From NCBI GenBank assembly GCA_013265495.1, contig MU057930.1, positions 381,599 to 445,598 of the forward strand: 64,000 nucleotides of DNA, in the 5' to 3' direction. The stretch comes from Vicugna vicugna. Its lineage: Eukaryota. A program made the position numbers and the translations under genes. A model generated the notes under the pieces. The model was not told the DNA's origin. It was given only the letters and a program-made list of their open reading frames with translations, and ran no database searches. Shown in pieces: positions 24,293 to 52,779 of this stretch (position 1 is its first letter; the number at the start of each line of letters is the position of its first letter).

Positions 24293-24442
24293 CTTATGGT
24301 GGTGTTCCCGTAGCAGCCGACGTCTCCAATGCCGAGATCGTCCGCCATCAGAAGAAGGATGCTCGGACGGGAGCCAAAATAATCTCTGCCAGCCGAGGGC
24401 TTCGCGGCGAGAAGCACTCCGATGGCCACGGCCAGCCAGCTC
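24293..24442 (-). CDS. ARSL: ARSL coding exon 2 ([11 protein letters not shown]...[26 protein letters not shown])
   Basis: tgtttcag| acceptor; 150 nt like the ARSD and ARSF paralogs if the donor is AG|gcaagg (GC donor). Confidence 0.88.
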
Positions 24443-25004
24443 CTGAAACACAAGGGGCCACAGAGGGCTTCACGCTGCCGTCCGTTTTGTTGACACTACT
24501 TCTGTAAGCCGGGGGTCACTATCTGAGGGGACTCGGATATTATCAGCCCATTTCAGAAGAGTCTGAATACATCTCTTTGACATTTTTTTGTCTTTAATTT
24601 AAACAACTCATACTTCTACGGACGCCACCGCGAGCATGCACAGGGACAACAGCACAGTGGGGTTCCGATCCCCGGGGTCATGAAATAAAGACAGAATCTG
24701 ACTCCGCAAAGCAATTCTGCATCGTGGGCTTCCAGGAAAACCAGACGCCCGGCCCACGGGAGGGCTTGATGCACGGCTGGGCTGGGAAGTGTGGAATGGA
24801 ATTCCCCCTGAAGCTGCCTGGGGTACCTCCCAGGTCGGGGCGCACGGAACACATACATTAAGCGTGAGCCCCACACCTGATCAGCAAGAGACATGACCAA
24901 CCACTCACTGAGAAACAGCCGTCTGTTATCAATGCATCTGAGAAAGGGCCGGGAAGAAACAGGCAAGCACAGAGGATTCGGCATCGCACATAATCCGATC
25001 TTAC

Positions 25005-25027
25005 CAGGACTGTTCTGGGTGCAGCAT
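25005..25027 (-). CDS. ARSL: ARSL coding exon 1 (MLHPEQS-W); whole exon 25005-25047
   Basis: Strong acceptor ctttctttcttacag|, ATG at 25027, donor TG|gtaaga; resembles the human ARSE start MLHLHHSC; phase 2 fits the next exon. Confidence 0.85.
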
Positions 25028-26049
25028 GTCCTCTCTCCTTCAGTTCCCTGTAAGAAAGAAAGAGGCTGATGCCAACGTAGGTAGCAGAAATTCAACTAAT
25101 TCGGTGAGTAAGTCTGCAATGAAAAAGGGCCCCCAAATCCTCACAAAACCGGTAGGCAAGGCTCATAAAGGAGCGCGCGTCCCGACTGGAAAGGCTTTAA
25201 AAACGCTCAACCCTGCCTTAAGAATGTAGAACACGGACTTTGTTAGCTGGAACGTAGGTTGGAGGATGATCAGTTTTCTGCCAGCCGGGGGGGGGGGGGG
25301 GGGGATTTCCCCCCCTGGGGGGGAAGGTTCCCAACGTTCCTCAAGGCTTGAAACGCCCCAACGCATTCCAGATCCAGGCGTGGCTGCCGAAAGCCATGTG
25401 TGACCTTGACGGATCTTGAATCTTGTAACAGCCAGCCAGTAAGCAGAGCCACATTCCAGCTGAAGGTTCTGGAATTCGTGGACCTCCCAGAGGTCACGGT
25501 GTGCGCAGCTCCTACTTGCACAAGCTCTGGATGAATTCGAGATGTGTTCCACCTAGAGGAAGCCGTGAACGCCCTCGAGACGACTCTTGGATGGAAGGAA
25601 GCCAGTCTGCAAACAACGTACCTGGGACCAGGATGTAGAAGGTAGCCTGCGGCCAGAGCTGGAGTGAGTCTATCCTGGTGGGACGTCTGCTCCAGCTCGA
25701 TGAGGAAAAGCCAGCTGGTCTTAGGTCTCTGCTTTAACTGCTGAGTCCTAATGAAAAAAAAAAAAAAGAATATAGAACATGTCTTTATCCAAAGCCAGAT
25801 GATAAGTATTTGGGGTTTTCTGCTGTGACTGTGGCTCTTACCTCTACGGCCTCACTCTGGCCCGTGGTGTGGACGTGACCCTGGAGCGCACACCGGTGAC
25901 GTCGACCCTGGCTGTCCTCCAGTAAAACCTGATTTCCAAAAACAGCCGAGAGTTTATTGAACGGACCAGAGATTCCAGATCCCTGATACAGACGGTAAAT
26001 GTCTAAAGGAAGATGTAAAATTAAGTAATAAAATATTGATATGAAATAT

Positions 26050-26880
26050 CTCCAATACATATTTTTAAAAAAATGTTTAATGGTGGTCAATACACCTAAT
26101 GAAATTGACCATCTTAACCATTTTTCGATGTACAGATCATTGGCATCACGTCCACTCACACTGTTATGCGCCCATCCCCACCGTCCATCCCCACTTCTTT
26201 TTTTTTTTTAATTTTGTTTTGAGGGAGGTAATTAGGTTGGTTTATTTATTTACTTGATGGAGGGACTGGGGATTGAACCCAGGACCTCGTGCACGCTAAG
26301 TATGCGCTCTAGCAATTGAGCTACACCCTCCCCCAAACCCACACTTCTGCTTTCTGTCTCTATGAATTTCTGATGACACCAGGGACCTCATACAAGTAGA
26401 ATCACGCAGTCTTTGTCCTTCTGTGTCTGTCTTACTTCACTTAGTGAAGTGTCCTCAAGTCTCATCCATGTTGTAGCCTGTGTCAGAACTTGCTTCCTTT
26501 TTCGTGGCTAAATAATATTCCACGATATGGATGGACCTAATTCCGTGTATATCCAATATATATATTTTTTATCCTCGCGTATTTTATTTATTTATTATTT
26601 TTTAAAATATATCTTTTAATTGATGTCTAGTCAGTTAACACAATATTGTGTCAATTTCTAGCGTACAGCACAATGCTTCAGTCACACAGGAACATACATA
26701 TATTTGTTTTAATATGCTTTTTCACCATCAGTTACTACAAGATATTGAATAAGGTTCCCTGTGCTCTACAGTATAAACTTCTTGTTTGTTTATTTTATGG
26801 CTAGTAGTTAGTATCTGCAAATCTCGAGCTCCCAATTTACCCCTTCCCACCATGGTAACTATAAGTTTATCCCATATATT
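26050..26880 (-). mobile_element. Nested L1 3' fragments
   Basis: catccatgttgtagcctgtgtcagaa...; tattgaataaggttccctgtgctctacag. Confidence 0.8.
26197..26334 (-). mobile_element. tRNA-derived SINE inserted in an older L1 fragment
   Basis: ggggattgaacccaggacctcgtgc...gagctacaccctcccc. Confidence 0.85.
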
Positions 26881-28970
26881 TTAAATGGAAAAAAAAAAAA
26901 AGAGGCAGGAGAAAGTGTGGGTTGGGCTCCTACGTGTGCAAAACAGTAAGAGGAGATGGAGAAAGGACACGTCTATTTGCTTGTCTACAGAATGACCTGG
27001 TGACAACAGCTGCTTCCTGCACAACAGGGACAGCCTTTTCCCCTGTGGTAAGAGGCTCAGACCTCTGGTTCACGTTCTAGCTCTGTGTCCCCTGGAGACT
27101 CAGTAAAGGTAGTGTGTCCCCGGGCACCTGGACAATTAGCCCTCCTGAGTCTCACCGTGTCCCGTCAGGGCTGCTCCCTGGGAAAGCACAGGCTGGCTCC
27201 TCGCTGGCTGGCTGCACGTCCAAGGGCACGGGCTGCTGTGTGGAGGCCCTGTCCTTGTCCCTCTGAGCCAGCCTGGTGTTTGCGGATCTTTCTCTGCACG
27301 TCAGCCCTTGGCCACAAGGCAGGGGACAGGTTCTTTCCAGGCTCCCCGGCCAGCTCAGGGTATGTGCCACGCCACCGCCAGCTGTATGCTCCTCAGCTCA
27401 AGGGCAGGGCGATGCACCTGTGGTGGCCCGGTGGCCAGGCGTGCGGTTGGGATGGGGCTTGGGCAGCAAAAAAACCCCACGGGACACGTTCACTCGGTCC
27501 CCTATATGCTGTCAGTGCCTCCGTAGGAGGGACATTTTCACTTGGGATCAAGGCCGAGGGTCTCCCTCACTCGTGGTGAGACCTGCTGTGACAGAGCAAG
27601 GTCTGGAACCAAGGTCCAGGAGCCACCCAGGTCGGTGCCTGTTCTTTGCTTCTGGTGGGCTGTGGACGGGGGTGACGGTGATTGTGGCCGTTCGCTTTCT
27701 GTATCATCCGAAGCCCTGAGTTTGCATGAGGGCTCATTTGTGATGTTGAACAGCCCACAGATGGACAAGGTGTAATGACATGATATGTACCTCTCGTGAG
27801 AGTGTCATCCAGGGCCCCCAAAGTCTTCCGTGCATCACCTGTTCATTCCTCCCCAGCCCGAGCCCCCGACAGCCACTGGTCCTTGCACTGTGTCCATAGC
27901 TTTTTTTCCCAGATTGTCGCAGAGTCGGAATCCCACAGGACGCGTACCATCGGCGAAACCACTCACTGATGGCGGGACGGAACACTGGGCAGGGGGAGAG
28001 AGGGGCTACCTGACCTGCTGTAACAGGTAGATGGCTGTGATGGCGCGTCCCAGAGCGAGCCGGGGAGGCAGGCTGCAAGTGCTTGCTTTTCATGTAATTG
28101 ACAAGCACCCTGCCCTCAGTATGGTCCATGGTGCAACTTTTGGCTACAAGTTACCACCTCCTGGGAGATCTATAGGAGCGTTTTTTTAAAAGATATACTT
28201 AGATATGAAATGATACACATTTATAATACTATAATATACATTTATAATATAATAATATACATTTATAATATAATATAATTACATTTATAATATATTTATA
28301 ATATAGTATATTTATAATATTAATAATATACATTTATAATACAATACCTTTATAATACGTATGCATAGAAATATGTAACCCACAGTATACATGTATTACA
28401 TAAAAATGTATAATTTGGTGTAAAATAGATACAATAATTTTGCTTTGTATCTATTTTAATCTTTTTTTGTTTTCTTCCAGAAAAAGTGGATTACAGGCTA
28501 CTTCTGACTCTTCTGGGGAATGTGACTCCTTGTATTTGTCCCACCTGAGTGAGCAGATTCTTTATATAAGCCATTCAGTCCAGGTTGCATGATCAGATGA
28601 GATTTGGTTTTATCCCGTCTCTGCCTTCCCTCTTAAGCGATGTGCTCTGTAAATTTAGCTACACCCAAGGCGCGTCTTTTTCTGTTGCCATGAAAGGCAG
28701 TATCTTATCCCTTCAAACACTGCCTGATTTTCTTCCTCTTGGCTCCTTGCTGCCAGAGAAAACTTTTGGTAAGAAAGATACCAAGCAAGCGTAGCGGGTT
28801 AGGGGGTGGTTCCCAGGGGGGTGGGAGGCTGGGGCAATGGGAAGATGTGTAAGGGTGCAAACTTGCCACCCAGAGATGAAGACGTTCTGCAGAGCTAACG
28901 CACAACACGGGCGATTGCTGCTGTGACATGAGTGTCAAAGCTGCTAAGAGACGAGATCTTAGCTGTTCGC

Positions 28971-29007
<37 letters not shown>

Positions 29008-29544
29008 CGCAATGGCAATTATGTGACGTGCGACTGGTGTTAGGTAACCCTGGTGTTGCAATCACGCTGCAACATATAAGTGCATCAAACAGACACTCTG
29101 TACACCTCAAACTTTCACAAGGTTACCTGCTAATTATCATCCCAAGTTTTAAAGAGATACAGAAAAAGAGGAAGAAAGAGTTTCGAGGAAGAATGGCACC
29201 TAAGTGAGCCTTTGATTCTCTTCCAGGGGAGAGAGATCTGCTCCCCATGGCGGACCCCGTCTCCGGCTCCTGGCTGCCCTCCAGAGCGCAGGCAGTAGGC
29301 CCGATTCGTCCACGACTCTCGGGCTCTGTTCCCAGACCCAGTTCAGTGTTTGATCTCTGCATCTCTTGAACTTCCTGTCCGCACACTGCAAAATCTCTTA
29401 GCATCTGGAGTAATTCTATTTGCCCCTCTTTCTCTAGTTCGATTAAATTCTGCATTTCTTTTAGAAATCACCCGACGCAAAGTTTGTCATGGATATCTTT
29501 GCTTTCCCTTTTTTTTTTTTTTTTAAGGAAAATTGCCTCTAAAC

Positions 29545-29790
29545 CGTGTCCAGATGCCACAGCGTGCCAGGCAGCGTGCGTGCCCAGGACGGCCGCCCAG
29601 GGTCACTGGCCAGCCGGCAGCTGACGCCCCAGCAGCTCAAGAGAAGCGGGTTACCTGAGTGGTGCGCTCGGGCCAGGCCGGCGGCGGGTCAGCGGGTGGC
29701 TGCTCGCACGGGGGCCGGCCCTCTCGCTCCTCGGCCCGGGAGCCACGGCCCTTGCTCTGAGCAGCAGCCCTCAGTCTGGTCCACGCATGT
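29545..29790 (-). promoter_or_regulatory. Small CpG island with a probable non-coding first exon of ARSL (donor at 29655)
   Basis: CpG-rich patch upstream of ARSL with a minus-strand donor CAG|gtaacc. Confidence 0.6.
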
Positions 29791-30399
29791 GCGGGCTGAT
29801 TCACTCCTCAGAGCGACAGGAGTTGTGCAGAATCCAAGTTAGGCTGCTCGGAGCAGGGGAGGGAAGTGCCTGGCGTCTGCTGTCTGCCCTTTTCAGGTTT
29901 CTACAGAGGACCTTCTGTTCTCACTTACGAAACGCATCACTTGCTGGGGGCAGGGGAGGAGGGGGACCCAACAGCTCTTACTACAAACAGTGACTCCTTC
30001 ACTTTCAAGTGGGCTGACACCCGCCTTGTCTTTGATCCCTCACTGGGAGCATTTGCTGGTTCTCTCCCAAAGCGGGGAAGCGGCTGCCTTGAAAATCCCT
30101 CTTGAACTGTCCTTAAATGTCGTATTTCCTCCTACTGCCTGCTGCCCCCAGCTCTGGCATCCGTGTCCGAAATAAAAAGAAGACAAAACGGCTCCGATAG
30201 CCTGCAATTGCTTCTCTGTGCAACTAACATTTAACTACCCGAGGACTGTTCTATGTTGTGCAAACTCCTTTTCGGTTTTATGCCAATTTTTTCTTTCCTT
30301 TTCTGTTTGCTGGGGAACCCATTTTCCCAGATGGTAGCAGCAATCTATATGTCAACTGACATCCTATGTAAGAACGATTATTCTCTTTTTCTTTTAAAT

Positions 30400-31030
30400 G
30401 CATTTTTTCATTGAGTTATAGTCCGTTGGCAATGTTGTGTCAATTTCTGGCGCACAGCACACTGCTTCAGTCAGACAGGAACGTGCATATATTTGTTTCC
30501 ATGTTTGTTTTCACCATAAGTTACGGCAAGATATTGAATAGAGTTCCCTGTGCTGTACAGTAGAAACTTGCTGTTAAGAATGATTCTTTTGAGACGCGTC
30601 TAGGTGTCGAATAATATGAAAATGTTCATCCAACATCACTTATATGTGGGATGTATTTTTTTTAAAAAAGATGCAAATGAACTTATTTACAAAACAGAAA
30701 CAGACTCAGATATAGAGAATAAACTTTTGGTTACCAGGGGCAAAGACAGTGGGAAAGTATAAACTGGGAGTTCAAGATTTACAGATACACACTACTAAAT
30801 ATATATATATATGTATATATATAGTATATAAAATAATATATATAATGTATATATGTATATAAAATAAACAACAAGGTCTTACTGTACAGCACAGGGAACT
30901 ACATTCATCATCTCATACTAACCGATCATAGAAAAAAAGGAGTGCATCAAACCCTTGAATTATCTGCTTCTCAACGGTTACAATGATCAATTTTGTGTTG
31001 TGTGGATTTTACTACAATGAAAGAAATGGA
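30400..31030. mobile_element. L1 3'UTR fragments in both orientations
   Basis: gttccctgtgctgtacag (minus) and caaatgaacttatttacaaaacagaaacagactc (plus). Confidence 0.8.
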
Positions 31031-32350
31031 AAACAGAAACTGGGGATTAAAAAAAAAAATGTGTGTTTTAGAACAGAACAAGTCAGTCTGTCACCTGCCT
31101 TCAATTCCACTTCGGGTAAATTCTCTGATCCGTCGCGGTGGTTGACGCGAGCTCGTCCGCTTGACCGCTCTCAGCCACCCAGAGGGGACGGGGGTTGGAT
31201 GTGACCCTTTCCCTGAATGAGCCCGTCAGGGCACCTTTCGCCCCGAGGGTCTCGGAATGCCGTGGGTCTCCTTCGCCCCTGGGCACCGTGATCCCTCCCC
31301 AGACCGCAGACCCAGCTGTCCATCTGGACACAGCCCGCAAACTGGCGATCAGAGCTTCACTGAGCTGTAAGGGAAGACGCCATCAAATGGTAAAATCGGA
31401 TGGATCTTTCCACAGAAGCCGTCTATTTTGGATCTGTGAATGATGTCAATCTGGCAGCGGGGTCACTGCTAGGCCGCTTCTGGTGGTAATCATTTTTTTG
31501 TTTCACTCTTGCAAGCACGGCGGTCCTGGAGGTGGGCCATGAACAGCAGGACTTGCAAACAGTGCCGGGCCATGGTGCTTTGCAGCTCTGTGACTTTAAG
31601 GCGGTTGCATAACCTCTCTGGTTCCCAGCTTCCTCACTGGCAGAATGGGACATGAGTGGCCACTGGGGGATCATGTGGGGATTACAGATAAAACAGGACA
31701 GGGTGGGGTTGACATGGAGGAACACCGAAGGGCCGCTGGATATTCTTTGTAGCTGAGAAATCGCAGGGAAAAAAAAGAAATCTCTTCTTTCTTTCATGGG
31801 GAAATCTCCGGATTTAGCGCCTCCCCGGTGACAAATTTTTCGGCTGCACTGAACATGGATCTCTGTGTGTTTTGGTCTGGAGTCATTTGGGGGCTCTAAG
31901 ATGATAGGCAGCTGTGTGCATTTATAACTCGCATCATTATTCCCCCCCAGGGGAAGCGCTGACTTATCTGTGGGTGTGACGAGGAAGATGACGTCCTGTC
32001 CGCCGCGTGCTGAGCAGAGAGGGTCTGCTGGGCGGCGGCCGATCACACACGGTGACCACAGAGGTCTCGGCTGACTCACTCGTTTCATCGGGGTGGAACT
32101 TCCTGCCCTCCCCCACTTTTCTTGGAAACCCTTAGACTTTGGGTCTTCTATCAAGTCACGCCCAGGAGCTCAGTGAAACAAAAGTGGATCCGTACACCCG
32201 TACACCTGGAGTGGAGCGCTCTGTTTTATCATGGTTGTTATATAATTGTGTCCTTCTTCGATCAAAATGACAGACCAAGGAGAAGATGAGAAGCAGCACG
32301 TCCAATGTCAGTGGTTTTACAAGTTGACTTTGGAAACTTCCACTTGTGTT

Positions 32351-32508
32351 GGGGAGGGTGAAGCTCCGGGGTAGAGTGTGTGCTTGGCATGTATGAGGTC
32401 CTGGGTTCAATCCCCAGTCCTTCGATTAAATAAGTAAGTGAATGAATCAATGAATGAATAAACAAACCTAATTATCTCCCCCTCCAAACAAAAAAGAAAG
32501 AAAGAAAG
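32351..32508 (+). mobile_element. tRNA-derived SINE with TSD aaa(c/g)ttccacttgt
   Basis: Consensus head, A-rich tail and flanking direct repeat. Confidence 0.85.
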
Positions 32509-32646
32509 TTCCACTTGTATGTGCTAAACCCACTTTTTAAAACAAAGTTATAATTAGAGGAATTTGGCCAGTTTCTTGTTTCTCACAATGGAGAAGATGA
32601 ACATTTTTCAAATCAGAGGAGAAGATAAACAAAAATAAAGCTACAA

Positions 32647-32966
32647 TTCCGCATATGTGGAATCTAAAAAACAAAAACAAAGCTTAAATACAGGACAGAA
32701 ATAGACTCACAGACAGAGAATACAGACTTGTGGCTGCCAGGGGGGTGGAGGGTGGGAAGGGATAGACGGGATTTCAAAATTGTAGAGTAGATAAACGAGA
32801 TTACACTGTATGGCACAGGGAGATATACACAAAATGTTATGATAACTCACAGAGAAAAAAATGTGACAATGAGTGAGTATATGTCCATGAATGACTGCAA
32901 AATTGTGCTGAACGCTGGAATTTGACACAAGATTCTAAAATGATTATAAATCAATAAAAATGTTAA
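32647..32966 (+). mobile_element. 5'-truncated young L1 3'UTR with a 16-bp TSD (aaaaataaagctacaa)
   Basis: L1 3'UTR motifs, AATAAA and poly-A; direct repeats at about 32631-32646 and 32967-32982. Confidence 0.88.
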
Positions 32967-35129
32967 AAAAATAAAGCTACAAGAGAGTGGATATGTTTTT
33001 TGTTAAACATGCCACAGACACGTGTTGGAGGTGAGTATTGTCATGTCGATTGCCACAGGAGGAAAATGACTTCCGTCATATTTAAGCAACTGCCTGAGAC
33101 TGTGCACATGTTCCTTGGAGAGCAAGGCCTGAAGTTCCATCTCTTTTCAAGGCAGCTAAACGGCACTGGGTGTGTGATGGTGTCAGATTGCCAAGCATTA
33201 TCTGTTTCTCTTTGCTTTACTTCATCCCCTCCTGGGAGAATGGCAGAAGTTCTTGGCCTTCCTGGCACATTGTGAATACTGAAGTTTACACATAAAACTG
33301 TCATGCCAGTGTTTTAAATACTGTCAGTTGCATGTGATTGCTAGCATTTTGAAACCTAATCTCATCAACGTAAAAAAGAAATCTGAAAAAACATCTCTCC
33401 TTTAACAGTCAGAAATTTTAAACAGCTTCTTTTCCCCCTCTGTGAATTTCGTTTCTCTTTGGCAGTTTATCACCTCCGCAGAATTTTCTCCAAATATTTT
33501 TAGCTTGAAATTCTTCCAGAAGTCCCTTTAGCATACTTTGCCACAGCTGAAAAATATTTTAAAATTATTCTGTATTGCTTCTTATGATTATAAATGTTAA
33601 AACAATGTTTCTGGTTAAGAGGGTTATCAATACCATTATTAAAGGTGTACAATTTATCAAAATGCACATAAACTGTTACCACTGGGGAAAGCGGTTGGAG
33701 GAGGGGTATGATAGGGGTGGAGAATTAAGATGTACCAACGACTATGTATAAAATAAATAAGCTACAAGGATACATTGTCTGACACAGGGAATACGGCCAA
33801 TATTTTATAATAACTATAAATGGAGCATAATCTATAAAAGTATTGAATCATGATGGTTTACACCTGAAACTAACATAATATTGTAAATCAACTATAATTC
33901 AGTTAAATATATATATATATATGTCTGTATCAATTTTGCTAGTTAGTATAAGCAAAACCTCTTTTACTGTCTTGAAGTTGCTTGTCTGAACAATTAATCA
34001 TCTGTTACCTAATGACTGCTCCCTTCACTTCTAAGGAGGGTGCGCCAGCCTGGCGCTGTTGTCACTGTGGATGATTTACATAGCCCTCCGTATCTGATCA
34101 TGGTGAAAAATGAGGACACTACACCCTTTTAAGGGGAGGGAGCTCCTGAATTTTTATGCAATGTGGCTGTTACAGAGCAAGTGAAGTGACACAAGACAAG
34201 CCACTTGTATGTGCTAAACCCACTTTTTAAAACAAATGAGAGTGTCATTTTTATAACACCCATAAAGTTTCTGAACATGGAGAGGTTAAGGTTAGGACAA
34301 CCCCAGCTCATGGAAAGTAACCCACTGGTTACAATCAAACACTGTGTCCTGTTACAAGGTAACACCTTATTTCAGAATCAGCACGTTCAAGGAAACGCAA
34401 ACTTTCGTAAGGCAGGCACCCGATCAGTCTCCTTGAGAAAACTTCATCTTCACTGGGTCCACCTACTCAGCGTGATAGCGCGTCTTTGCATGTGCTCCAC
34501 GTTCTGTTGAAAAAAAATCAGAAAGCCACACTGCAGGGGTATATTTCTCACGCTTCCGTCTCCTTCAGGGGTAGTAGCCAAATGCCAAATCTGACCCGTC
34601 TAGGTGAAAGTCAGATGTCACAAAATGTCGCGTGCCCACAACCGCTGGCTTGGAAGACAGGGCATTTCCAATCATGATTACCGACAGGCTTGTATGTGAC
34701 TGATGCAACTCAAGAAACATCGCTCCAGCGATGGCCAAAGTCTTGTTCCTTTTCATTGCATCTTGTCTTCCGATAGGTTCTTCTCTGGGTTTTAAGATGG
34801 TGTTAACTGCAGCATCGTGAGGTTACAGTGTTCAGTCAACATGGTTCACGAGATAGCATTAATCAAAACCTGAAAAAAGAGCCACAATTGCTTGCATTTG
34901 TAACGTAAAATGGCAGCCGGCAACGGCAGGACATATTAAGATCGGCAAACCCCGTTGAAACAAACTACTTAGAGCTGGATACTGCAAGGCCTCGCCATGA
35001 GCACGGGAGTGAAAAAGCTTTCTGGGATGTGCGTGAGGACCCTGAGCGAGACTCACCCCGCCAGGGAACGTGAGAACTGCACGGAGTCCTGGCAGCTGGA
35101 AGGAGAGAAAGTCAGGGAACATGCTGACA

Positions 35130-35830
35130 AGATTTCACACCTGTTTCTTACGGAGCTGCCATGGGGCTCTGTATTTAAGACACTTTTATCTTTTCTGTTG
35201 TATTGTTCAGCAAGAAAACTCATACACCCTTTAGTAGTTCTCATTCTGGAGAACAGCTTCCAACTTTTTTGACACCTCCTTTTGGCGTTTTTATACAACT
35301 CAGGTGCAGTGTGTCCCTCCAAGGAGGTTGACCCGGGGACACCTGTGTCTTTGGCCTGATGCTCCAGGACTTGGCATCTAGAATTCACAGAACCACCCAG
35401 AGACACCTTTCATAGAACATCTCATCTCAAGAAGCAATGTTCTGGTGAAAAAGGTCTCCGTAGTGAGAATATATACAGATCATCTGCAGAGCCAGCTGGC
35501 TGCCTTCTTGAGCTGAGTGTTCATGAATTTCCCTTGTGTGCAGAATCATAATGTCTTGGGGTCTTTTATGCCCACATCTTAATTCCTAATGCCAGGTTAT
35601 GGCTTGTCTTGTGTCACTTCACTTGCTCTGTAACAGCAATCCACGTGGGGCGTGGCATTGACATACTGGACACCCACCCCCTCCCAGATTATCCCCACGA
35701 TCTGTCTTGCTGGACGTAATTCAGAAACAACCCCGGGGTCAGGGAGGAGATACTGTATTTCATCTCCTCTATTTAGGGACACAGATCACCCCAAGGCAGT
35801 ACCGAAGACCACACAATCAGCAAACTGCAA
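35130..35830 (-). repeat. Inverted repeat, left arm (identical core 35338-35730)
   Basis: Reverse complement of about 37510-38220; the ORF track shows the same peptides on opposite strands. Confidence 0.95.
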
Positions 35831-36039
35831 TGTCAGATTCAAAGAAACCACCCATTCTTGGGAAAGCCAGCCTTCCTTTGAACCCGATGAATCATTTTAG
35901 TAGGATTTGCAGCTAAGAACACTCAGTCCCCACCAGGAAGGTGGAAGGTATTTTCCTGAATGCAATTATAATTTTTTTTTCTTTGCTGGACTTGCAGAAA
36001 AGATACTAATTAGGAATGCAAATTGCTCCATTTGCACCT

Positions 36040-36185
36040 CGTTAAACAGGAACTGTCTCGGGCAGCAGTGCACGACAGCACGAACCACTTCTCAGGGTGC
36101 GGACTGGTGGTACCAGCAAGGCTAACCCGGGTGCCTGTGTGAAGACCCAAAATCCTACGCCTTGGGGAGACACCACTGCAGCCGG
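36040..36185 (+). promoter_or_regulatory. Putative ARSF promoter / non-coding first exon (5' boundary uncertain)
   Basis: Mildly CpG-enriched stretch ending in a consensus donor CGG|gtgagt about 650 nt upstream of the ATG exon. Confidence 0.45.
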
Positions 36186-36908
36186 GTGAGTTGAGGATGG
36201 CTACGGATACACACATTCTGAGCTCTTTTTTTTTTTTTTCTTTTCTCTGTTGCCATGGGCCGAATTCCTGAGCGTGGGATTTTGAAGGCTTTTTGGTTGA
36301 CTATCTTTTTTTTCTCTTCTAAGAATTCAGTGAATCAGGTTACACATGGGGAAACTGATTCCAAATCAACTTTTGAGTCAGTTTCTCTCCTTTCTCCTTC
36401 CTTCCCTTCCCTTCCTTCCTTCATTTCTTTCTTCCTTTCTCTTGCGTAGCCAATAACTATTTTTTTCTGGGTAGTCTCTGCTTTTAAGCAAAAGTGACTG
36501 ATGGAGGAGGAGATTCATATGATGTTCTTAGCATTATTTTAAAGTTCAAATATGGGTAACCCTTTGCAAAAGGAAGATGGGTCTTTCTATCTTTCTTCCA
36601 TTCTTTCTTCCTTCCTTTCTTTCTTTCCTTCATTCTCTTCCTTCCTTCCTTCCTTTCATTCTTGTTAATTGCAATGAAGTTTGCTGTTGTATGATTCTGT
36701 CATCATACGTCCCCCACCCCCTCCATTCCCAATTATATACAATGGTCCACTACCCTGAAATCCCCATGCAGTGGTCAAGATTTGGGCTGATGCAAAATCA
36801 AAAAAGTGAACATCTTCAAGTCATTGTCTCTTTTCAGGAGATCCAGATTCATCCCATCTAGGATCTTAGATCTCTGGCCATAAAGACCAGGAAGCTACTC
36901 AGACAGAC

Positions 36909-36922
36909 ATGATGAAACTCAG
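36909..36922 (+). CDS. ARSF: Arylsulfatase F, coding exon 1 (MMKL-R); whole exon about 36838-36922
   Basis: Acceptor ctcttttcag|, ATGATGAAACTCAG|gtaaga; phase 2 joins 38839 in frame; comparable to the short human ARSF start MRPR. Confidence 0.72.
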
Positions 36923-37080
36923 GTAAGAAAATCAGACGTTTATACGGTGAATGTGTTGACTATGACGGACAGTTCTGAGACACAAGATGCCTCAACTGGT
37001 GCTCTGCAGTCAACGGGCCTGTAATAAAGAAAGGTAGCAGACATTTTCGCCATGGATACGAATATGAATGGCACATTCCT

Positions 37081-37240
37081 TTTTTTTTTTAAAGAAATTT
37101 ATTTATTGTTTGTTTGTGTTTGCTTTGTGGGGAGATAATTAGGTTTATTTATTTATTTTTTAATGCAGGTACCGGGGACTGAACCCAGGACCTTGTGCAC
37201 GCCAAGCACGCACTCTACCACCGAGCTACACCCTCCCCCC
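37081..37240 (-). mobile_element. tRNA-derived SINE
   Basis: Reverse consensus; flanked by ggcacatt repeats. Confidence 0.85.
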
Positions 37241-37509
37241 ATAAACGGCACATTTCAAACACAGCTTTCTTATGTTAAAATAGCATCAAAACACCGATTC
37301 CACTGACTCTGGGCAGGTGGAAATCCTTTCTGTAATTATTGGTGATTTGGCAACAGGAAAAGTCCTGGGGAAAAACGACTGGGTGGATCAAAGGGGTGCC
37401 ACCTTGCATGGGTAGCGTTGTTTTGGGGGAAGGAGAAAGGCTGGCAGGGGGAATATTTGAGGTACGCGTTTGAAATAGGAATAAAGAGGAGATGGAGGCT
37501 GAACCCCAG

Positions 37510-38220
37510 CAGATTGGTGTCTGCTGACTCCGCCCTGTCTGGTATTGCCTCGGGGAGAAATGTATACTTAATTAGAGAGACAAGATGTTTTATCTCCCCT
37601 GCAACCGAACCCCCCGGGATTGTTTCTGAATTACGTCCAGCAAGACAGATCGTGGGGATAATCTGGGAGGGGGTGGGTGTCCAGTATGTCAATGCCACGC
37701 CCCACGTGGATTGCTGTTACAGAGCAAGTGAAGTGACACAAGACAAGCCATAACCTGGCATTAGGAATTAAGATGTGGGCATAAAAGACCCCAAGACATT
37801 ATGATTCTGCACACAAGGGAAATTCATGAACACTCAGCTCAAGAAGGCAGCCAGCTGGCTCTGCAGATGATCTGTATATATTCTCACTACGGAGACCTTT
37901 TTCACCAGAACATTGCTTCTTGAGATGAGATGTTCTATGAAAGGTGTCTCTGGGTGGTTCTGTGAATTCTAGATGCCAAGTCCTGGAGCATCAGGCCAAA
38001 GACACAGGTGTCTCCAGGTCAACCTCCTTGGAGGGACACACTGCACCTGAGTTGTGTAGAAACACCAAAAGGAGGTGTCAAAACAGGTTTGAATCTGTTC
38101 TCAGGGATGAGAACCACAAAGGGTGTATGAGTTTCCATCCTGAATAAGACAATAGAAAAGGAAAAATGTCTTAAATACAGGGTCCCGTGGCAGCTCCATT
38201 AGAAGCTGGTCTGAAATCTC
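37510..38220 (+). repeat. Inverted repeat, right arm (identical core 37620-38012), in an ARSF intron
   Basis: Base-by-base reverse-complement match to the left arm. Confidence 0.95.
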
Positions 38221-38838
38221 ATCAGTTCAAGTGCCTGGTATTTATCATCTGATCATGGAGTAGGGATCCACTGATAAGAGAATTATCCATGATTTGATTG
38301 ACGATGTGGGACTTGAGACAGAGCAAAATTATCAAGTACACTCAGCTGGTCTCTTAATTCTCTCCTTTCTTCTGTGGCATCTTTGTCTTCGCTTTGCGTG
38401 TGTGGTTTTTCTTCTGTGCAAGCAAATGTTCCTTCAGCAACGCTGCTATATGCACGGGTCTAAATTCCAATGTGACAGAAAATCCATCAGGAAAAGTTAC
38501 CAGGAAAAGCATGACCCTTCTTCGCTGGATTTCAACTCAAGGGTCTTGGTATCTCTTGCCCAAAGAAGGCTTTGTTTCTGGGTGAACGTTTTCCAACTTC
38601 ACCTCCTGGGAGAACATTGTAGTCTGTGTGTGAGTTGAGCGTCCAGGAATGCCTCCCTTTGAGCGCGGCTGGCTGGTACTATTCAACCGCGATGGCCAAT
38701 ACTTGGAAGAGGAATTTCTGAGCCCCGCGTGTGCCTGGGGAGAAGGTCTGCTAGGAGCCCTGTGCACTGACAGGAAGCCTGGAATTGAACGTAGCTCCTG
38801 AGACCATCCCTCTAAAAAAGTCCTCCTTTGCTTTGCAG

Positions 38839-38988
38839 GAGCCTCTTCACCTCCCTGCCTTGGTTGTGCGTACTCTTAAACACGTGCCCGTCACAAGGGG
38901 TAACCGGCGAGAAGCCTAATGTCGTCCTGATCATGGTGGATGACCTTGGCATTGGCGATCTCGGTTGCTATGGGAAAGACACAATGAG
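38839..38988 (+). CDS. ARSF: ARSF coding exon 2 ([16 protein letters not shown]...[26 protein letters not shown])
   Basis: 150 nt; tttgcag| acceptor and AG|gtaggg donor; LLNTC and LIMVDDLG are ARSF-like. Confidence 0.92.
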
Positions 38989-40626
38989 GTAGGGTCATCT
39001 CCTGAGTCCTACTTATCTATCGTTCAGGCTTGGACGATTGATACACTTTACAACTGTGTCTGCCTGCAAAACCCAAGTGATTTTTTTTTTAAACAAGCAA
39101 ATTATATTAAACTCAGGGCTGTTTGGACTGGATTCTTGGCTCTGCATTTACTAGCCGTCAAATCGTAGGCAAGTGTCTTGACCTCTGTGGGCCTTGTTTT
39201 TCTTCTTGGCTGACTGCAGAAGTCAATGGTATTACCTGTGATTTCATACATGCAAAGTGTTGAGAATTGCTACCTGGCACACACTGCATCCTCTTTGATA
39301 CAGACTATGAAGATGAGCAGTGATTTTCATGCCCTAGTTTTACTTGGCAGAATTAATCACTGTATGCTTCCTTATTTTGTAAGCCAAACAGAACTTGGAA
39401 GGTGGCATCTTATTTTGACAATGAGCACTCTCAAAGAAGAAAAACATGAAACAGAAACTCAGAGGCTTCTGCCGGATGATTAAAACCATCTGCATGAGCC
39501 CTGCCTATATAAAGGTTTGCAGTGTATCATTATAAGACATATGAACTGGACACATGAGGAATTCTTTCATGTCTCACTGATAGGTGTCAGAGCTACTCAT
39601 CTCTGCTTTGGATAAAAAAAAATTACGAGTCATGAAAAAGTAAATGTCAAAATTAATCATTACTTCTACTAAAAGGAGCAAAAGCTCAAAAAAAGTGCAT
39701 AAGGAAATGAATGGTAGACGTTTGTAGATATGGTGGAGTTGTGGGGTGTAAATATTTTGCTGAAAATGCCAGCTCCTTGAGAAGTAAGATCATAATGTAA
39801 CATCTAAAAGGAGTCATGTGTGCAGCAGGAATGCAGGCTATATATGCTAGCATATATATACATATACTTATATATGCAGGCATATCGATACACACCCCTA
39901 CATATTTGCAAATGGAACCACGCTTAAAAGACGGCGGATGAATTTCACGTTTAAATGCAGAGAAATGCTTTAGCAAAGCCGGAAATTCTGGAAGTATCAA
40001 GTTGCCATTCACCGTCTGTCTCATGAGCAAGCCTAGGACTGATTATTTTTTATTTTTACCCGACTACGAGACGGCTCCTCTTCTGTGGAAGTCTGCCTTG
40101 GAGTCCCTCCTTGGAATCACATATCCTTGTGTTTAATCACAGGGCAGTTTTTTGACCTACGTGTAGAGTAGGGACATCCATCAATGGAGTTGTGGGTGGA
40201 AATAATCGTTAGGTCTTAAGTAGCTGGATGTAACTAAAGTCTGTAAGTAATTAGCCATAATTAATCAAAGACACCGAAATAGTTTGTGTAAATATATATA
40301 TATATACACAAAAATATGTACATGCATTTTTTAAAATAGATACCAAACTGCAGAACCAATCCTGCAATTAGCAATAGTTGCATAAAAGCAAGTATTTTCA
40401 CCCTGAAGTGGACAAAGAAAAGAAAAGAAAAGAAAAGAAAACTGAGCAAGTGACCCTCTGTTCCCTCCTGAGTTCAGAGAATTGCAGTGAACAGGGATGA
40501 TGGCTACCTTCAGATCTCTCTTCTCAATCCCGCTCTCTCCCTGTGTCTCTCTGCTCTCTCTCTCTCTCTCCTTTCCACGCCCCGTTCTCCGTCTCTCTCC
40601 AATTATCCTCCTACCTCTCTTCTCAG

Positions 40627-40748
40627 GACTCCTCACGTCGACCGCTTAGCCAGGGAAGGTGTGCGGCTGACGCAGCACATCTCGGCAGCCTCGATGTGTA
40701 GTCCCAGCCGATCTGCTTTCCTGACGGGAAGATACCCCATCCGCTCAG
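40627..40748 (+). CDS. ARSF: ARSF coding exon 3 ([11 protein letters not shown]...[17 protein letters not shown])
   Basis: 122 nt; catalytic CSPSR motif. Confidence 0.94.
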
Positions 40749-41028
40749 GTGTGTCAGCCCCGAAGCCCGCTGTCCCGTTAGGGTGGTGTGTCTGTGCGTG
40801 TCTGAGAGCGTCGTGCGTGCTCGTGCAAGAACGGAAAAGGGGCATTGCGTGTGGCGGGGTGTGAGCTCCGTTTGCAGAGCACCATCTCCTTCCTCACGAG
40901 ATGTCTTCTGTTCCGTGCACAGACCACCTCTCCTCCTTCCAGGAAGCTCCCAATCTCTCTCACGCTTCAACCGATGATCGCCTGCCCACTGTAGGTGCAT
41001 TTTATTTTATGTTTCACGTTCCATTCAG

Positions 41029-41151
41029 GAATGGTTTCTAACAGAACTGTCCGTGTCATCCGGTCCCTTGGAGTGTCTGCTGGACTCCCTACAAATGAAA
41101 CGACATTCGCCGCCTTACTCAAGAACCAAGGGTACAGCACAGGACTCATCG
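41029..41151 (+). CDS. ARSF: ARSF coding exon 4 ([14 protein letters not shown]...[19 protein letters not shown])
   Basis: 123 nt; canonical splice sites. Confidence 0.92.
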
Positions 41152-41567
41152 GTGAGACGTGATTTGTTAGTTTGACCCATTTACCTTAAAGTAAGGATAT
41201 ACGTTTCTCTAGCCTCGACTTACTGTGTTCTTGAAATCCCTTTATTTGAAAATCTGTTTGGTTATGTGCCCAGGAGTGGGATTGCTGGATCAGCTGAACT
41301 CATCTGCAAAACAGAAAGAGACTCACAGACGTAGTAAACAGCCTTATGATTACCGGGGGAGAGTAGGAGGGAAGGGATAAATTTGGGGATGAGAGATCTG
41401 CAGATGATAACCACTGTGTGTTAAAATAGATTAAAAAAAAACAAATTTCTGTACAGCACAGGAAACGATATTCAATATCTTATAATAACCTTTAATGGAA
41501 ATGAATATACGTATGTATATGTATTATATATGGTTGGGGCAACAGCCAAGCCAGCATAGCTGTTTGA

Positions 41568-41604
<37 letters not shown>

Positions 41605-42259
41605 CTGGATAAATGGTACCTACTCATCCATTTCTGACATAATTCAGGCACCACTGAAAAACCCTTTTGCACCCGACCCCTCAATCTTCACCAGATGTTC
41701 ATCCTATGTGTTTACGTACCACCCTGTGAACCTCACCTTTGCAAACACTCCCCTGTGCTATGATGATCTTTGTACATGATTCTCTGCAGACTCTGAAATC
41801 TTTCATCTCAGCCACCATGTCCAATTTAACAAATGTAATTGATCCACCCAAGAACACATAAATATCTCTCTGCACTGCTAACTTTATACATGGTGTCAAC
41901 ATTGGACTCTGTCTACACCCTTTATCCATTACCCATTATCCAAACAGAAAAAAAGAAAAGAGTTTCCAGTGAATGTTTATTTTTCAAACTTCACACCCTC
42001 TATCTGTCACCCAAACAGGAAAAAAGAGAATTTCAAATAAATGTCTCTTCGAAAATGTCCACGTTCTGTATCTTTCACCTAAACAAAGAAACAAACAAAC
42101 AAAAAAGACATTCAAATAAATGTCTGTTGAACATTGTCCACACCCTGTATCTGTTAACCGAAACCGAGATAAGGAGCATTTACATCCCATTAGAAATTCC
42201 TTCCTGCCCCATCCCAGCGCATCCCTCTGATTTGACTCCTTTTTGCCTCCACTCCTGTT

Positions 42260-42407
42260 CTGTTGGTTTGTTTGTTTGTTTGCGGGGTTAAGGAGGAAGA
42301 GAAATAATTAGACTTATTTATTTATGTTAGTGGAGGTACTGAGGACTGAACACAGGGCCTTGTGCATGCTAAGCCTGTGCTCTACCCCTGAGCTACACCC
42401 CCCTCCC
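42260..42407 (-). mobile_element. tRNA-derived SINE
   Basis: Reverse consensus. Confidence 0.8.
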
Positions 42408-43134
42408 TCCAATCCTCTTCTTGACGATCAATTCAGAAGAGAAACACTTGGTGCTCCTTTTGGCAACAATCATGGTCTCTAGTTAACTGTGTGTATCGCA
42501 GTGAGACGGCGTTGCCCAGGGACAAAATCATTAACAACTACAGATGGGAGGGGATTTCTGAGAAAAAAACCTGTCTCCTTAATTCAGAGACAAGGAAATG
42601 GATTCTTCTCAAGGCGGAAGAGCGCAGGAGGTGTTTTAAAGGGACAGCTGCATAACAAGGAAGATCCGATTTCTCAGGCTCCCTGCCCCTTTCACATTGT
42701 CCCACTGTTTGGTCTTCCGCCCAGCTCATTATTTCATTCAGGCTGGACCCTATGGATGTCCTTCTCCTCACTATCTCCTCACTATCACTATTGTGATTTT
42801 GGTAATAAATGTGACATGGACCAGCGAAGACCATCTCGCTGAAGTGGCTGAGCAGAAAACTGACGGCCGTAGCACGACCTCTCATCCACCTGCCGCCTCA
42901 GGCGCTCGGAGATGTGTACGTGCATCCTCCATGTGGTCACAGCTGCATGCAAGAAAATGTTAATATTTTAGAAGACACACATGATCACACTCCCCGAGGG
43001 TCCACACATTAGCAGGACTCATGCGGATCTTTCATGTACTGTTGCGGGTGTGGCACATTTTACTGCCTAAATCCCTTACTTCAGTGAACTTCAGTGGGAG
43101 ACCCTAGGATTTCCATCCAGCCAAACAGCCGAGC

Positions 43135-43213
43135 ACCCATTCATCCATACTCAGTCCATCCTCCGTCATTTATCTGTATCTATCATCTGTCTGTCTATCT
43201 ATCTATCCATCTA

Positions 43214-43302
<89 letters not shown>

Positions 43303-43856
43303 CCTACCTATCTTTCCATCCAGCTAACCGTCCATCTATCTGTTCTGTCTACCTACCATCCCACTAATATCTAATCACACATCTATCTATTCATCTATCC
43401 ATCCATCTACCCATAAATACAGATAAGCATGCCCCATCCATCTTCCATCATTTATTTGTATATATCATACCTACCTATCCATTCATCCAACCATCAGTCA
43501 TCTCTCTATTCATCATGTATCCTCTATTTTGTCTCTATCATTTACCTATATTTGTGGCTATAATTTATTTATGTCTCTGTCTATCTAGCCATCCACCTAT
43601 TCATCCATCTATCTCCTATTCTATCTCACTGCCTAATATCTATCTACCTACCTACTTGTCCATCATCTACAATCTGCCTTGTCTCTGTCGTGGATGTGTC
43701 TTTGTGCCTATGACTTTGTCCTCTCTGTGAATGAGCAACTGCCTACTTCAGATCTTTGCTACAAATCCACAATGATATTTCTCTCGGTTTTCTTTTCGTC
43801 CTATCTGGTCACTCACAACCAGATCTCAACACAAACTTCTACAAGATAGAGAAGGA

Positions 43857-43888
<32 letters not shown>

Positions 43889-43920
43889 AACAAACAAACA
43901 AACAAACAAACAAACAAACG
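43135..43920. repeat. (TATC)n array, degenerate TCCA/TATC tract and (GAAA)n(CAAA)n
   Basis: Direct inspection. Confidence 0.9.
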
Positions 43921-44073
43921 TGAGTCTATGCTCAACTGAGATGTTTTAGCCAAGGGGAAGTATCTGCTCATCCATTTTTGTGCATTGGCCGATTGTTTCA
44001 AATGAAGAAAGTCTCATGGTCTTTGGCATGTGCTGACGTATCATGCTTTGCTCACGTGTGTGTTTAATTTCAG

Positions 44074-44497
44074 GCAAGTGGCATCAGGGCTTAAATTGCC
44101 AATCACGAAGTGACCATTGCCACCACCCATATAATTATGGATTTGATTACTTCTACGGGATGCCATATACACTGCTGGAGTCCTGCTGGCCAGATCCTTC
44201 CCGCAACACGGAATTAGCCATCTCAAGCAGACTCTGGCTCTGTGTGCAGCTGGTCATCTTGGCAGCTCTCACTTTTACGTTGGGGAAACTGAGTCGCTGG
44301 ATCGCTGTCTCCTGGTCCCTCATCCTCTCCATGATTCTTTTTGTTTTCCTCCTGGGCTACTTCTGGTTGTCCAGCTATACATCCCAGCTGTACTGGGATT
44401 GCCTCCTCCTTCGAGACCACAAGATCACCGAACAGCCCATGAAGGCAGAACGAGCTGGGTACATCATGGTGAGGGAGGCGGTTTCATTTTTAGAAAG
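44074..44497 (+). CDS. ARSF: ARSF coding exon 5 (KWHQGLNC...[10 protein letters not shown]...[12 protein letters not shown]...two TM helices...SFLER)
   Basis: 424 nt; HHPYNYGFD and [11 protein letters not shown] match human ARSF rather than ARSH. Confidence 0.95.
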
Positions 44498-47384: not shown

Positions 47385-47865
47385 CAGTTATAGTTTATTA
47401 TAAGATATTGAATATAGTTCCCTGTGCTATACAGTAAATCTTTGTTGGTTATCTATTTTATATTCACTGGTGCGTATCTGTTAATCACAAATTCCTAATT
47501 ATATAGTAGTATGTATCTGTTAATCTCAAACTCTTAATTTATCCCTGCCACTGTCCCTCTTTGGCAACCATCGTCTGTTTTCTACGTCTGTGAATCTGTT
47601 TCTGTTTCATAAATAGGTTCATTCATATTCTTTTTGTTAGATTCCACATATGAGTGATATCATATAATATTTGTCTTTCTCTGTCTGACTTACTTTACTT
47701 AGTATGACAGTCTCCAGGTCCATCCATGTTGCTGCAAACGGCATTATTTCATTCTTTTTCATGGCTGAGTAGTATTCCATTGTATAAATATACCACTTCT
47801 TCTTTATCCAATCATCTGCTGATGGACATTTAGATTGTTTCCATGCTTTGGCTATTGTAAATAAT
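47385..47865 (-). mobile_element. LINE-1 3' fragment
   Basis: ccatccatgttgctgcaaacggcattatttcattctttttcatggctgagtagtattccatt. Confidence 0.9.
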
Positions 47866-48059
47866 CAGGCAGGGCTACTTCTCAGTGCAGTAGTCCTAGG
47901 TACATCCGGGGGAGCTGTCCAGATTCTGGAGGGTCCTGGAATCCACCCCAGGCTAGGATGATCTCTTAAATGGGCTGCCTCAGGTGGAGAAGGATTGGAA
48001 TATTGCTCACTTTCCCAGGTTTTGCAAACTCAGAAGCAGTGTGATTGATGTCTTCTCAG

Positions 48060-48196
48060 GCACCATCAAGGACCCTTCCTCCTCCTTTTCTGCTTTCTTC
48101 ATGTGCACATCCCTCTCCCCACGGCGGATGCCTTCTTGGGCGTCAGCAAGCACGGTCTGTACGGGGATAACCTGCAGGAGATGGACACCATGCTGG
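48060..48196 (+). CDS. ARSF: ARSF coding exon 6 ([20 protein letters not shown]...[12 protein letters not shown])
   Basis: 137 nt; tctcag| acceptor and G|gtaagt donor. Confidence 0.92.
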
Positions 48197-52750: not shown

Positions 52751-52779
52751 TTCATTCCTCCCTGCCACCAAATGATCCA

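What the first reader, a model, noticed from the sequence alone, without database searches (positions are those of the whole stretch)
35130..38220. ARSF promoter and start-codon exon sit inside a homogenised inverted repeat: a potentially invertible cassette between two divergent paralogs
Seen: two ~700-bp inverted arms with a 393-bp core in which I found no mismatch (35338-35730 vs 37620-38012). The spacer holds the putative ARSF first exon (donor 36185) and the ATG exon (36909-36922, phase-2 donor); the right arm lies in the next ARSF intron. Established: recombination between inverted arms flips the spacer. Inference: a flip would cut ARSF off from its promoter and start codon and aim them at ARSL. 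The ARSL 150-nt exon (acceptor 24442) takes the same phase, so an in-frame MMKLR-SWLAV... ARSL could result. This would act as an ARSF-off / ARSL-rewired switch or an inversion polymorphism. Nothing here shows that inversion actually occurs.
Basis: partly seen in the sequence, partly recalled or inferred. Interest (0 to 1): 0.75.

Follow-up and report, generated by a model that had tools for sequence, protein, structure and literature searches.

The report
Gene-converted inverted repeat around ARSF start
Two mirror-image DNA copies with an identical 393-base core flank the start-codon exon of the camelid sulfatase gene ARSF; they are likely an old duplication kept alike by gene conversion, and a flip between them, which was not observed, would likely just break ARSF rather than act as a switch.

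Summary
The repeat is real. Arms of about 730 bp (35105-35831 and 37513-38246) share a perfect 393-bp core, flanked by zones 8%, 20% and 32% diverged. That stepped pattern fits an old inverted duplication homogenised by gene conversion or template switching. The locus is the ARSD-ARSL-ARSF cluster of a South American camelid, pseudoautosomal in alpaca. The ARSF start-codon exon lies in the spacer, so a crossover in the core would cut ARSF from its ATG, and 393 bp is long enough for occasional non-allelic recombination.

The switch reading is weak. ARSL has its own conserved ATG exon (25047-25005); splicing a flipped donor into it is out of frame. The matching phase is shared by all three paralogs. 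An in-frame chimera would change only the start of the signal peptide. Annotated ARSF proteins of four camelid species and of equids keep the window's arrangement, and 0 of 39 ARSL-type proteins carry the ARSF start.

Orientation polymorphism, the transcription start and RNA junctions could not be tested. The closest known case is the F8 intron 1 inversion repeat pair. Verdict: new member of a known kind, low interest.

The parts
35105..35831 (+). Left arm of the inverted repeat (about 730 bp), upstream of the ARSF 5' exons
35338..35730 (+). Perfect 393-bp core in the left arm; contains an acceptor-like site at 35637
37513..38246 (-). Right arm, in the ARSF intron after the ATG exon
37620..38012 (-). 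Perfect 393-bp core in the right arm
35731..37619 (.). Segment between the cores (1889 bp) that a crossover in the cores would invert
   Evidence: inference from geometry
35998..36185 (+). Putative upstream non-coding ARSF exon. Consensus donor after 36185. The start is unknown: a T-rich tract ending in CAG at 35997 could make it an internal exon. Octamer motif at 36016
   Evidence: first-exon status untested
36838..36922 (+). ARSF start-codon exon (85 nt, ATG 36909, phase-2 donor)
37106..37267 (-). tRNA-derived SINE in the spacer; an annotated wild-camel ARSF isoform carries a 17-residue insert after the start exon that best matches this SINE read from 37169
38839..38988 (+). ARSF next coding exon (150 nt, signal peptide and start of the sulfatase domain); further ARSF exons run to about 54543
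25005..25047 (-).
25622..25747 (-). Likely upstream ARSL exon (126 nt), similar to an annotated whale ARSL isoform's N-terminus
24293..24442 (-). ARSL 150-nt exon (phase-2 acceptor, GC donor)
34166..34236 (.). Composite 71-bp piece: 38 bp identical to the arm core plus 36 bp identical to 32511-32546, overlapping by 3 bp; likely a templated insertion

Best explanation
This is a local inverted repeat around the ARSF start-codon exon, likely an old duplication whose centre has been re-homogenised by arm-to-arm gene conversion or template switching, with no likely switch function. Shown: arm geometry, the stepped divergence (0%, 8%, 20%, 32%), the exon positions and reading frames. Inferred: the duplication is tens of millions of years old; the 1.9-kb distance lets the arms pair; repair copies one arm onto the other, most recently over a tract of about 390 bp, probably within the last 1.5-2.5 million years under an assumed rate. 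The same pairing could rarely resolve as a crossover and invert the spacer. That would most likely be an ARSF loss-of-function accident of the F8 intron-1 type, with at most some read-through toward ARSL. The window's orientation is the ancestral and prevailing one.
For: Stepped divergence far beyond chance: longest perfect run 393 against a shuffle maximum of 111 in 20,000. A diverged relative of the arm from an unnamed record (P0140; 44.7 and 41.6 bits against at most 24.3 in 30 shuffled windows) matches only 7 of 23 core codons but 12-14 of 24 middle-zone codons. So the core is not more conserved against an outside sequence, which favours conversion over purifying selection. No Rfam family other than the two SINE tRNA heads scores below E 0.05 in 32000-39000, no sulfatase remnant lies in the arms, and one arm alone folds no better than shuffles (z -1.37). 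Orientation: 6 of 9 camelid ARSF records, covering all four species, start with the spacer exon joined to exon 38839; so do 6 of 12 members of the equid cluster and the rhinoceros record. One wild-camel isoform also carries a peptide that best matches the spacer SINE in ARSF sense. Literature: conversion greatly outnumbers inversion between palindrome arms (56 conversions vs 3 inversions in P6; PMC3723533 section 13); mammalian tracts are usually a few hundred bp (PMC3961182 passage). ARSF lies in the alpaca pseudoautosomal region (PMC7830431 Table S2).
Against: No orthologous arm pair from another species was obtained, so concerted evolution is inferred from one genome plus one translated relative of unknown origin and only 47 codons (core and middle zone). 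A recent partial re-duplication, or homogenisation during assembly polishing, would look similar. The orientation evidence comes from gene models on a handful of reference assemblies and does not show that the arms exist there. 11 of 16 analysable human IR-flanked inversions were recurrent (PMC3961182), although that statement concerns large repeats. ARSF is reported lost in ruminants, so a null flip may be tolerated. The ages rest on an assumed rate of 1.5-2.5e-9 per site per year (recalled, not from a call).
Confidence: 0.62

Rival explanations
1. The spacer is a segregating, possibly recurrent germline inversion polymorphism. Inverted chromosomes would be ARSF nulls, tolerated because ARSF is dispensable.
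For: 393 bp of perfect identity lies in the 300-500 bp range quoted for efficient meiotic NAHR, and close repeats need less (PMC2583991). IR-flanked inversions are often recurrent (PMC3961182). ARSF is reported absent from ruminant PARs (PMC6923926; PMC12663436). Short-read data would miss it, because a crossover in the core creates no new short word.
Against: Every camelid species with annotation has a record in the window's arrangement, and 0 of 39 ARSL-type proteins have the ARSF start. ARSF is intact and conserved across camelids and equids. Crossover is rare relative to conversion. One review table still lists ARSF as FISH-mapped in cattle, sheep and goat, which weakens the dispensability argument.
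Confidence: 0.18
2. The repeat acts in RNA. If ARSF transcription can start left of the left arm, both arms are in one pre-mRNA and form a 475-bp stem that loops out the ATG exon, promoting its skipping or back-splicing into a circle.
For: The arms would pair very stably (-977 kcal/mol for the 475-nt arms). Acceptor-like sites lie at 35637, 35777 and possibly 35997, so the 36185 exon need not be first. 2 of 9 camelid ARSF records start at the downstream Met and lack the spacer exon's peptide. Reverse-complementary intron matches promote both skipping and back-splicing (PMC8330042 abstract).
Against: No upstream start is known. A stable duplex follows trivially from any perfect repeat. The short ARSF records may be incomplete gene models. 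The core is not conserved against the outside relative.
Confidence: 0.08
3. The perfect core is partly an assembly or polishing artefact: two similar but non-identical arms were collapsed to one consensus.
For: Reads shorter than the core cannot be assigned to an arm.
Against: The flanks retain 76 arm-specific differences, including sites right at the core edges. Collapse needs an already near-identical core, which would still imply conversion. 20 of 24 listed runs from 7 studies hold 0.81-0.93 of the words of 35740-41200, so the region exists in independent samples, though this does not test the core arm by arm.
Confidence: 0.08
4. A regulated somatic or germline switch: flipping turns ARSF off and drives an in-frame ARSF-start/ARSL chimera.
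For: The direct splice of donor 36922 to acceptor 24442 is in frame. No AATAAA or ATTAAA lies on the minus strand between 35337 and 28461, so a flipped transcript could run some way toward ARSL.
Against: The new intron would be 12 kb against the normal 1.9 kb and must pass 12 acceptor-like sites, including ARSL's own ATG exon, whose inclusion is out of frame and stops after 73 codons. The phase is common to all three paralogs. The mature enzyme would be unchanged. 0 of 39 ARSL-type proteins show this start. I know of no site-specific invertase acting on 400-bp homologies in mammals (recalled).
Confidence: 0.02

Closest known systems
F8 int1h-1/int1h-2 repeats and the haemophilia A intron 1 inversion (PMC7507428 passages; PMC7752620 passage)
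   Same: One near-identical copy in an early intron and one outside the gene. NAHR inverts the segment, separates promoter and first exon from the gene body, and yields hybrid transcripts with a neighbouring gene (F8 exon 1 with VBP1 exons).
   Different: The F8 copies are about 126 kb apart and the inversion is an observed disease allele. Here the arms are 1.9 kb apart, the neighbour is a paralog, and no inverted allele has been seen.
Human polymorphic inversions flanked by inverted repeats, such as HsInv0241 at AQP12A/B and HsInv0209 (PMC3961182 passages)
   Same: Diverged inverted duplicates with a short near-perfect block (782 bp at 99.9% inside 94% duplicates for HsInv0209) as the likely breakpoint; effects on first exons of paralogs.
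   Different: Those inversions were genotyped in both orientations. In HsInv0241 the arms are the paralogous genes themselves, whereas here the arms are non-coding and the flip would remove a start exon without giving ARSF another.
Sex-chromosome palindromes maintained by arm-to-arm gene conversion, e.g. human Y palindrome P6 (PMC3723533 abstract and section 13)
   Same: Arm identity kept by conversion; inversion of the spacer is the rare crossover outcome.
   Different: P6 arms are far longer and over 99.9% identical throughout, on the non-recombining Y. This is a sub-kilobase repeat in a pseudoautosomal region with only its centre homogenised.
Template switching between short inverted repeats (PMC8604942 abstract)
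   Same: Gives both arm homogenisation and spacer inversion; the 71-bp composite at 34166-34236 looks like a template-switch product at the same locus.
   Different: Described in yeast for short repeats within coding DNA; scale and organism differ.

Membership tests
Inverted repeat homogenised by gene conversion | Two arms in inverted orientation around a spacer | tested here: met
Inverted repeat homogenised by gene conversion | Mosaic identity: a perfect tract inside diverged arms, beyond chance | tested here: met
   0 of 393 vs 31 of 157 and 32 of 100; shuffle maximum 111
Inverted repeat homogenised by gene conversion | Arms more alike within species than to orthologous arms (concerted evolution) | tested here: inconclusive
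   Only one translated relative of unknown origin: core 7 of 23 codons for both arms; no orthologous arm pair obtained
IR-mediated polymorphic inversion (Aguado-type, F8 Inv1-type) | Uninterrupted identity at or above the minimal efficient processing segment | tested here: met
   393 bp vs 300-500 bp meiotic estimate (PMC2583991)
IR-mediated polymorphic inversion (Aguado-type, F8 Inv1-type) | Both orientations observed in individuals or species | not testable with these tools
   Only contig-level DNA runs were listed; annotations of four camelid species show the window's orientation
IR-mediated polymorphic inversion (Aguado-type, F8 Inv1-type) | Breakpoint repeat separates the start exon from the gene body | tested here: met
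   ATG exon 36838-36922 inside, exon 38839-38988 outside
Programmed invertible promoter switch (bacterial phase-variation type; recalled) | The flip supplies the second gene with a promoter or start that it otherwise lacks, giving a distinct product | tested here: not met
   ARSL has its own conserved ATG exon; inclusion after a flip is out of frame; the skipped form differs only at the start of the signal peptide
Programmed invertible promoter switch (bacterial phase-variation type; recalled) | Short recombinase sites and a dedicated site-specific recombinase | not tested
   No search for a recombinase was made; the repeat is a long homology, and the only genes mapped by homology in the window are ARSD, ARSL and ARSF
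Programmed invertible promoter switch (bacterial phase-variation type; recalled) | Promoter lies inside the invertible segment | not testable with these tools
   No transcription-start data; consensus donor at 36185 and octamer at 36016, but acceptor-like sites upstream
Exon circularisation or skipping driven by reverse-complementary intron matches | Exon with acceptor and donor bracketed by complementary arms | tested here: met
   Exon 36838-36922 between the arms
Exon circularisation or skipping driven by reverse-complementary intron matches | Both arms transcribed in one RNA and a back-splice or skip junction observed | not testable with these tools
   No RNA data could be examined

The most novel reading that the evidence does not exclude
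A recurrent flip-flop inversion segregating in camelids that toggles ARSF on and off and, when flipped, points the ARSF promoter into ARSL. It would impose ARSF's tissue pattern on ARSL through an in-frame signal-peptide swap, or damp ARSL through an overlapping upstream reading frame, and be invisible to SNP arrays and short reads.
Probability: 0.1. Interest if true: 0.55.

Novelty: new member of a known kind. Interest (0 to 1): 0.22.

Why it matters
At most it flags a hidden structural-variant hotspot. A 1.9-kb inversion here would create an ARSF null allele that short-read genotyping cannot see, and it offers a compact case of stepwise gene conversion in a recombining pseudoautosomal region. 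The mechanism and its consequence (start exon cut off, hybrid transcript with a neighbour) are already known from F8 intron 1 and from human IR-flanked inversions. It would become notable only if both orientations segregate and alter ARSL expression.

Tried and rejected
No whole genome is held for this window, so copy number of the arm could not be counted.

Sequencing-run search: 24 runs listed, all contig-level, no RNA holder listed and no raw or long reads. This is no evidence on expression. No read-level comparison of the locus was obtained, so orientation, arm-specific variants and splice junctions remain open.

Searches for orthologous arms led almost nowhere. An exact 22-mer from the core gave 0 matches in metagenome contigs. 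0 of 10 arm-overlapping open frames are in the protein collection as exact sequences. A profile of the arm frames gave 0 confirmed loci among 151 pattern matches, and only P0140 itself among 2 candidates. The HMMER search gave 3 hits, of which P0138 and P0139 look like repetitive chance matches and only P0140 maps to both arms. The Atlas look-up of P0140 gave only scores under 0.8 and a poor model.

Idea that the arm is a decayed sulfatase (ARSH) exon: one weak tblastn hit (E 0.015) was not upheld by a 102-sequence sulfatase profile. The best score in 25100-38780 was 5.1 bits, outside the arms, against 3.9 for reversed sequence. Rejected.

Idea that the arm is a structured RNA: Rfam shows only two SINE tRNA heads and two sub-threshold snoRNA hits; single-arm folding z -1.37. 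Rejected.

Idea that the whole 3.1 kb is a transposon with long terminal inverted repeats: rejected because the spacer holds the conserved ARSF start exon. Whether each arm is an old transposable-element copy was not testable (no repeat library).

Literature searches listed no paper describing this repeat or an inversion at the ARSF 5' end, judged from listings and the passages read; the library is open-access only. Earlier-findings look-ups by place and sequence found nothing for this locus. The acceptor scan is crude: it misses the real 36838 and 24442 acceptors.
Full report
OBSERVATION. The inverted repeat is the longest in the window. Identity is stepped: 31 substitutions in 157 outer columns, 6 in 74 middle columns, 0 in 393 core columns, 32 in 100 inner columns. 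Shuffling the 76 difference events 20,000 times gave a longest perfect run of 44 on average and 111 at most. No other full copy of the arm lies in the 64 kb; only a 38-bp piece recurs at 34166-34203.

LOCUS. Protein searches with two window exons returned camelid ARSL and ARSF as best hits. tblastn maps the 5' part of an ARSD-like gene (minus, to about 5 kb), ARSL (minus, 8391-25047) and ARSF (plus, 36838-54543). Exons are closer to alpaca than to Old World camels (ARSF exon 44073-44498: 97.2% vs 93.0%), so the source is likely a South American camelid. ARSF lies on an alpaca pseudoautosomal contig with GYG2, XG and CD99 (PMC7830431, Table S2 row).

ANATOMY. The spacer holds a consensus donor at 36185, the 85-nt ARSF ATG exon 36838-36922 and a tRNA-derived SINE at 37106-37267. 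The ATG exon splices in frame to 38839-38988 and reproduces the annotated N-terminus. The right arm lies in that intron. Whether 36185 ends the first exon is unknown: acceptor-like sites occur at 35637 and 35777, and a T-rich tract ends in CAG at 35997 (read, below the script's cut-off). 'Promoter inside the spacer' is therefore plausible but untested.

WHAT A FLIP WOULD DO. A crossover in the cores would invert 35731-37619 and remove the ATG exon from ARSF. The next in-frame Met lies after the signal peptide, so ARSF would likely be null (inference from sulfatase targeting; recalled). The flipped donor would sit 11.4 kb from ARSL's own ATG exon and 12.0 kb from the 24442 acceptor, against a normal intron of 1.9 kb, with 12 acceptor-like sites between. 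ARSL's own start exon, 25047-25005, matches the N-terminus of 4 of 8 members of the camelid ARSL cluster (the other 4 are fragments) and resembles whale, bat, deer and elephant ARSL starts. Splicing into it is out of frame and stops after 73 codons; only skipping it gives the in-frame chimera. The phase agreement is shared by ARSD, ARSL and ARSF at this paralogous intron, so it carries no information. The chimera would differ from ARSL only in the first signal-peptide residues.

ORIENTATION ELSEWHERE. Of 9 camelid ARSF records, 6 begin with the spacer exon's peptide joined to the next exon, covering alpaca, dromedary, Bactrian and wild camel. 2 start at the downstream Met and 1 has an unrelated N-terminus. 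In the equid cluster 6 of 12 members, and the rhinoceros record, begin the same way. One wild-camel isoform inserts 17 residues that best match the spacer SINE in ARSF sense (other SINE copies match nearly as well). Among 39 stored proteins with the ARSL-type motif (including the window's own exon and several isoforms per species), 0 carry the ARSF start. These are gene models on few assemblies. They show that the window's orientation is ancestral and common, not that it is fixed, and they do not show the arms in those species. 20 of 24 listed sequencing runs from 7 studies hold 0.81-0.93 of the words of 35740-41200. All are contigs, which cannot phase across a 393-bp identical core, and no read-level comparison was obtained.

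WHY THE CORE IS IDENTICAL. A translated arm frame found one diverged relative, P0140, from an unnamed 3.1-kb ENA contig. It matches both arms well above shuffled windows (44.7 and 41.6 bits vs at most 24.3 in 30 shuffles). In the core both arms share 7 of 23 codons with it; in the middle zone 12 and 14 of 24, with each arm carrying its own derived changes. So the arm sequence is old and the core is not specially conserved against an outside sequence, yet it is identical between arms. That is what conversion predicts and purifying selection does not. The sample is small and the relative's origin, orthologue or repeat copy, is unknown. With an assumed 1.5-2.5e-9 substitutions per site per year (recalled), the outer zone dates to 46-76 My, the middle to 17-29 My (6 differences only) and the core to under 1.5-2.5 My; a faster pseudoautosomal rate would shorten these. 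A 71-bp composite at 34166-34236, made of exact copies of the core and of 32511-32546 joined over 3 bp, suggests template switching at this locus; the link is inference.

COMPARISON. The arrangement works like the F8 int1h pair, where NAHR between an intron-1 copy and an outside copy about 126 kb away separates promoter and exon 1 and yields hybrid transcripts with VBP1 (PMC7507428 passages; PMC7752620 passages). It also resembles the human IR-flanked inversions of PMC3961182 (passages), 11 of 16 of which were recurrent, and conversion-maintained palindromes, where 56 conversions stood against 3 inversions (PMC3723533 abstract and section 13). The core meets the 300-500 bp meiotic minimum (PMC2583991 passages). 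ARSF is reported lost in ruminants (PMC6923926 passages; PMC12663436 passage), although a review table lists it as FISH-mapped in cattle, sheep and goat (PMC9449390 passages). An RNA-level rival (looping-out or circularisation of the ATG exon) needs a start left of the left arm (PMC8330042 abstract; the Sry paper PMC4288412 seen as a search listing only). Also seen: PMC8604942 and PMC5398296 (abstracts), PMC7830431 (passages) and the horse preprint 10.1101/2025.09.10.675315 (passages; its inversion remark is unrelated, and its supplements were not seen). Six searches listed no description of this repeat; inversion tables in supplements of pangenome papers were not examined and could bear on that. 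Unchecked earlier notes from this genome report several similar inverted repeats (31 of 169 notes fit the words, 8 shown), which suggests that such structures are not rare here.

VERDICT. Observation confirmed; interpretation partly supported. Best reading (0.62): an old inverted duplication homogenised by conversion, with inversion a possible rare accident that would null ARSF. Segregating inversion 0.18; RNA stem 0.08; assembly artefact 0.08; regulated switch 0.02. New member of a known kind; interest 0.22.

Noticed in passing
window 34166-34236: Composite of a 38-bp exact copy of the arm core (ending at an acceptor-like AG) and a 36-bp exact copy of 32511-32546, overlapping by 3 bp; looks like a templated insertion from two nearby templates.
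   Followed up: partly
window 25100-38800: No ARSH gene or remnant between ARSL and ARSF (113 sulfatase queries; profile), although a review lists the order ARSD, ARSL, ARSH, ARSF. Wild-camel ARSE and ARSF have consecutive accessions. ARSH may be lost or moved in camelids; no mammalian ARSH was among the queries.
   Followed up: partly
window 37106-37267: An annotated wild-camel ARSF isoform (P0121) appears to exonise this intronic SINE in frame between the ATG exon and the next exon.
   Followed up: partly
window 24293: The ARSL 150-nt exon ends in a GC donor (GC-AG intron).
   Followed up: no
window 25622-25747 (minus): 126-nt likely upstream ARSL exon, open in frame and 60% identical in translation to a false killer whale ARSL isoform's N-terminus.
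   Followed up: partly
window 29500-29800 (minus): GC-rich stretch with a consensus donor near 29654, a candidate ARSL first exon or promoter about 5.5 kb from the left arm.
   Followed up: no
window 61298-62941: Tandem array of a 76-bp unit with strong strand skew, downstream of ARSF.
   Followed up: no
window 36016-36023: Perfect octamer motif (POU-factor site, recalled) with a near-inverted partner just downstream, in the putative ARSF 5' region.
   Followed up: no
window 38840-38986 (ARSF exon): The window encodes Lys where annotated camelid and most other ARSF proteins have Asn in the N-x-T sequon after the CYG motif, removing a likely glycosylation site.
   Followed up: no
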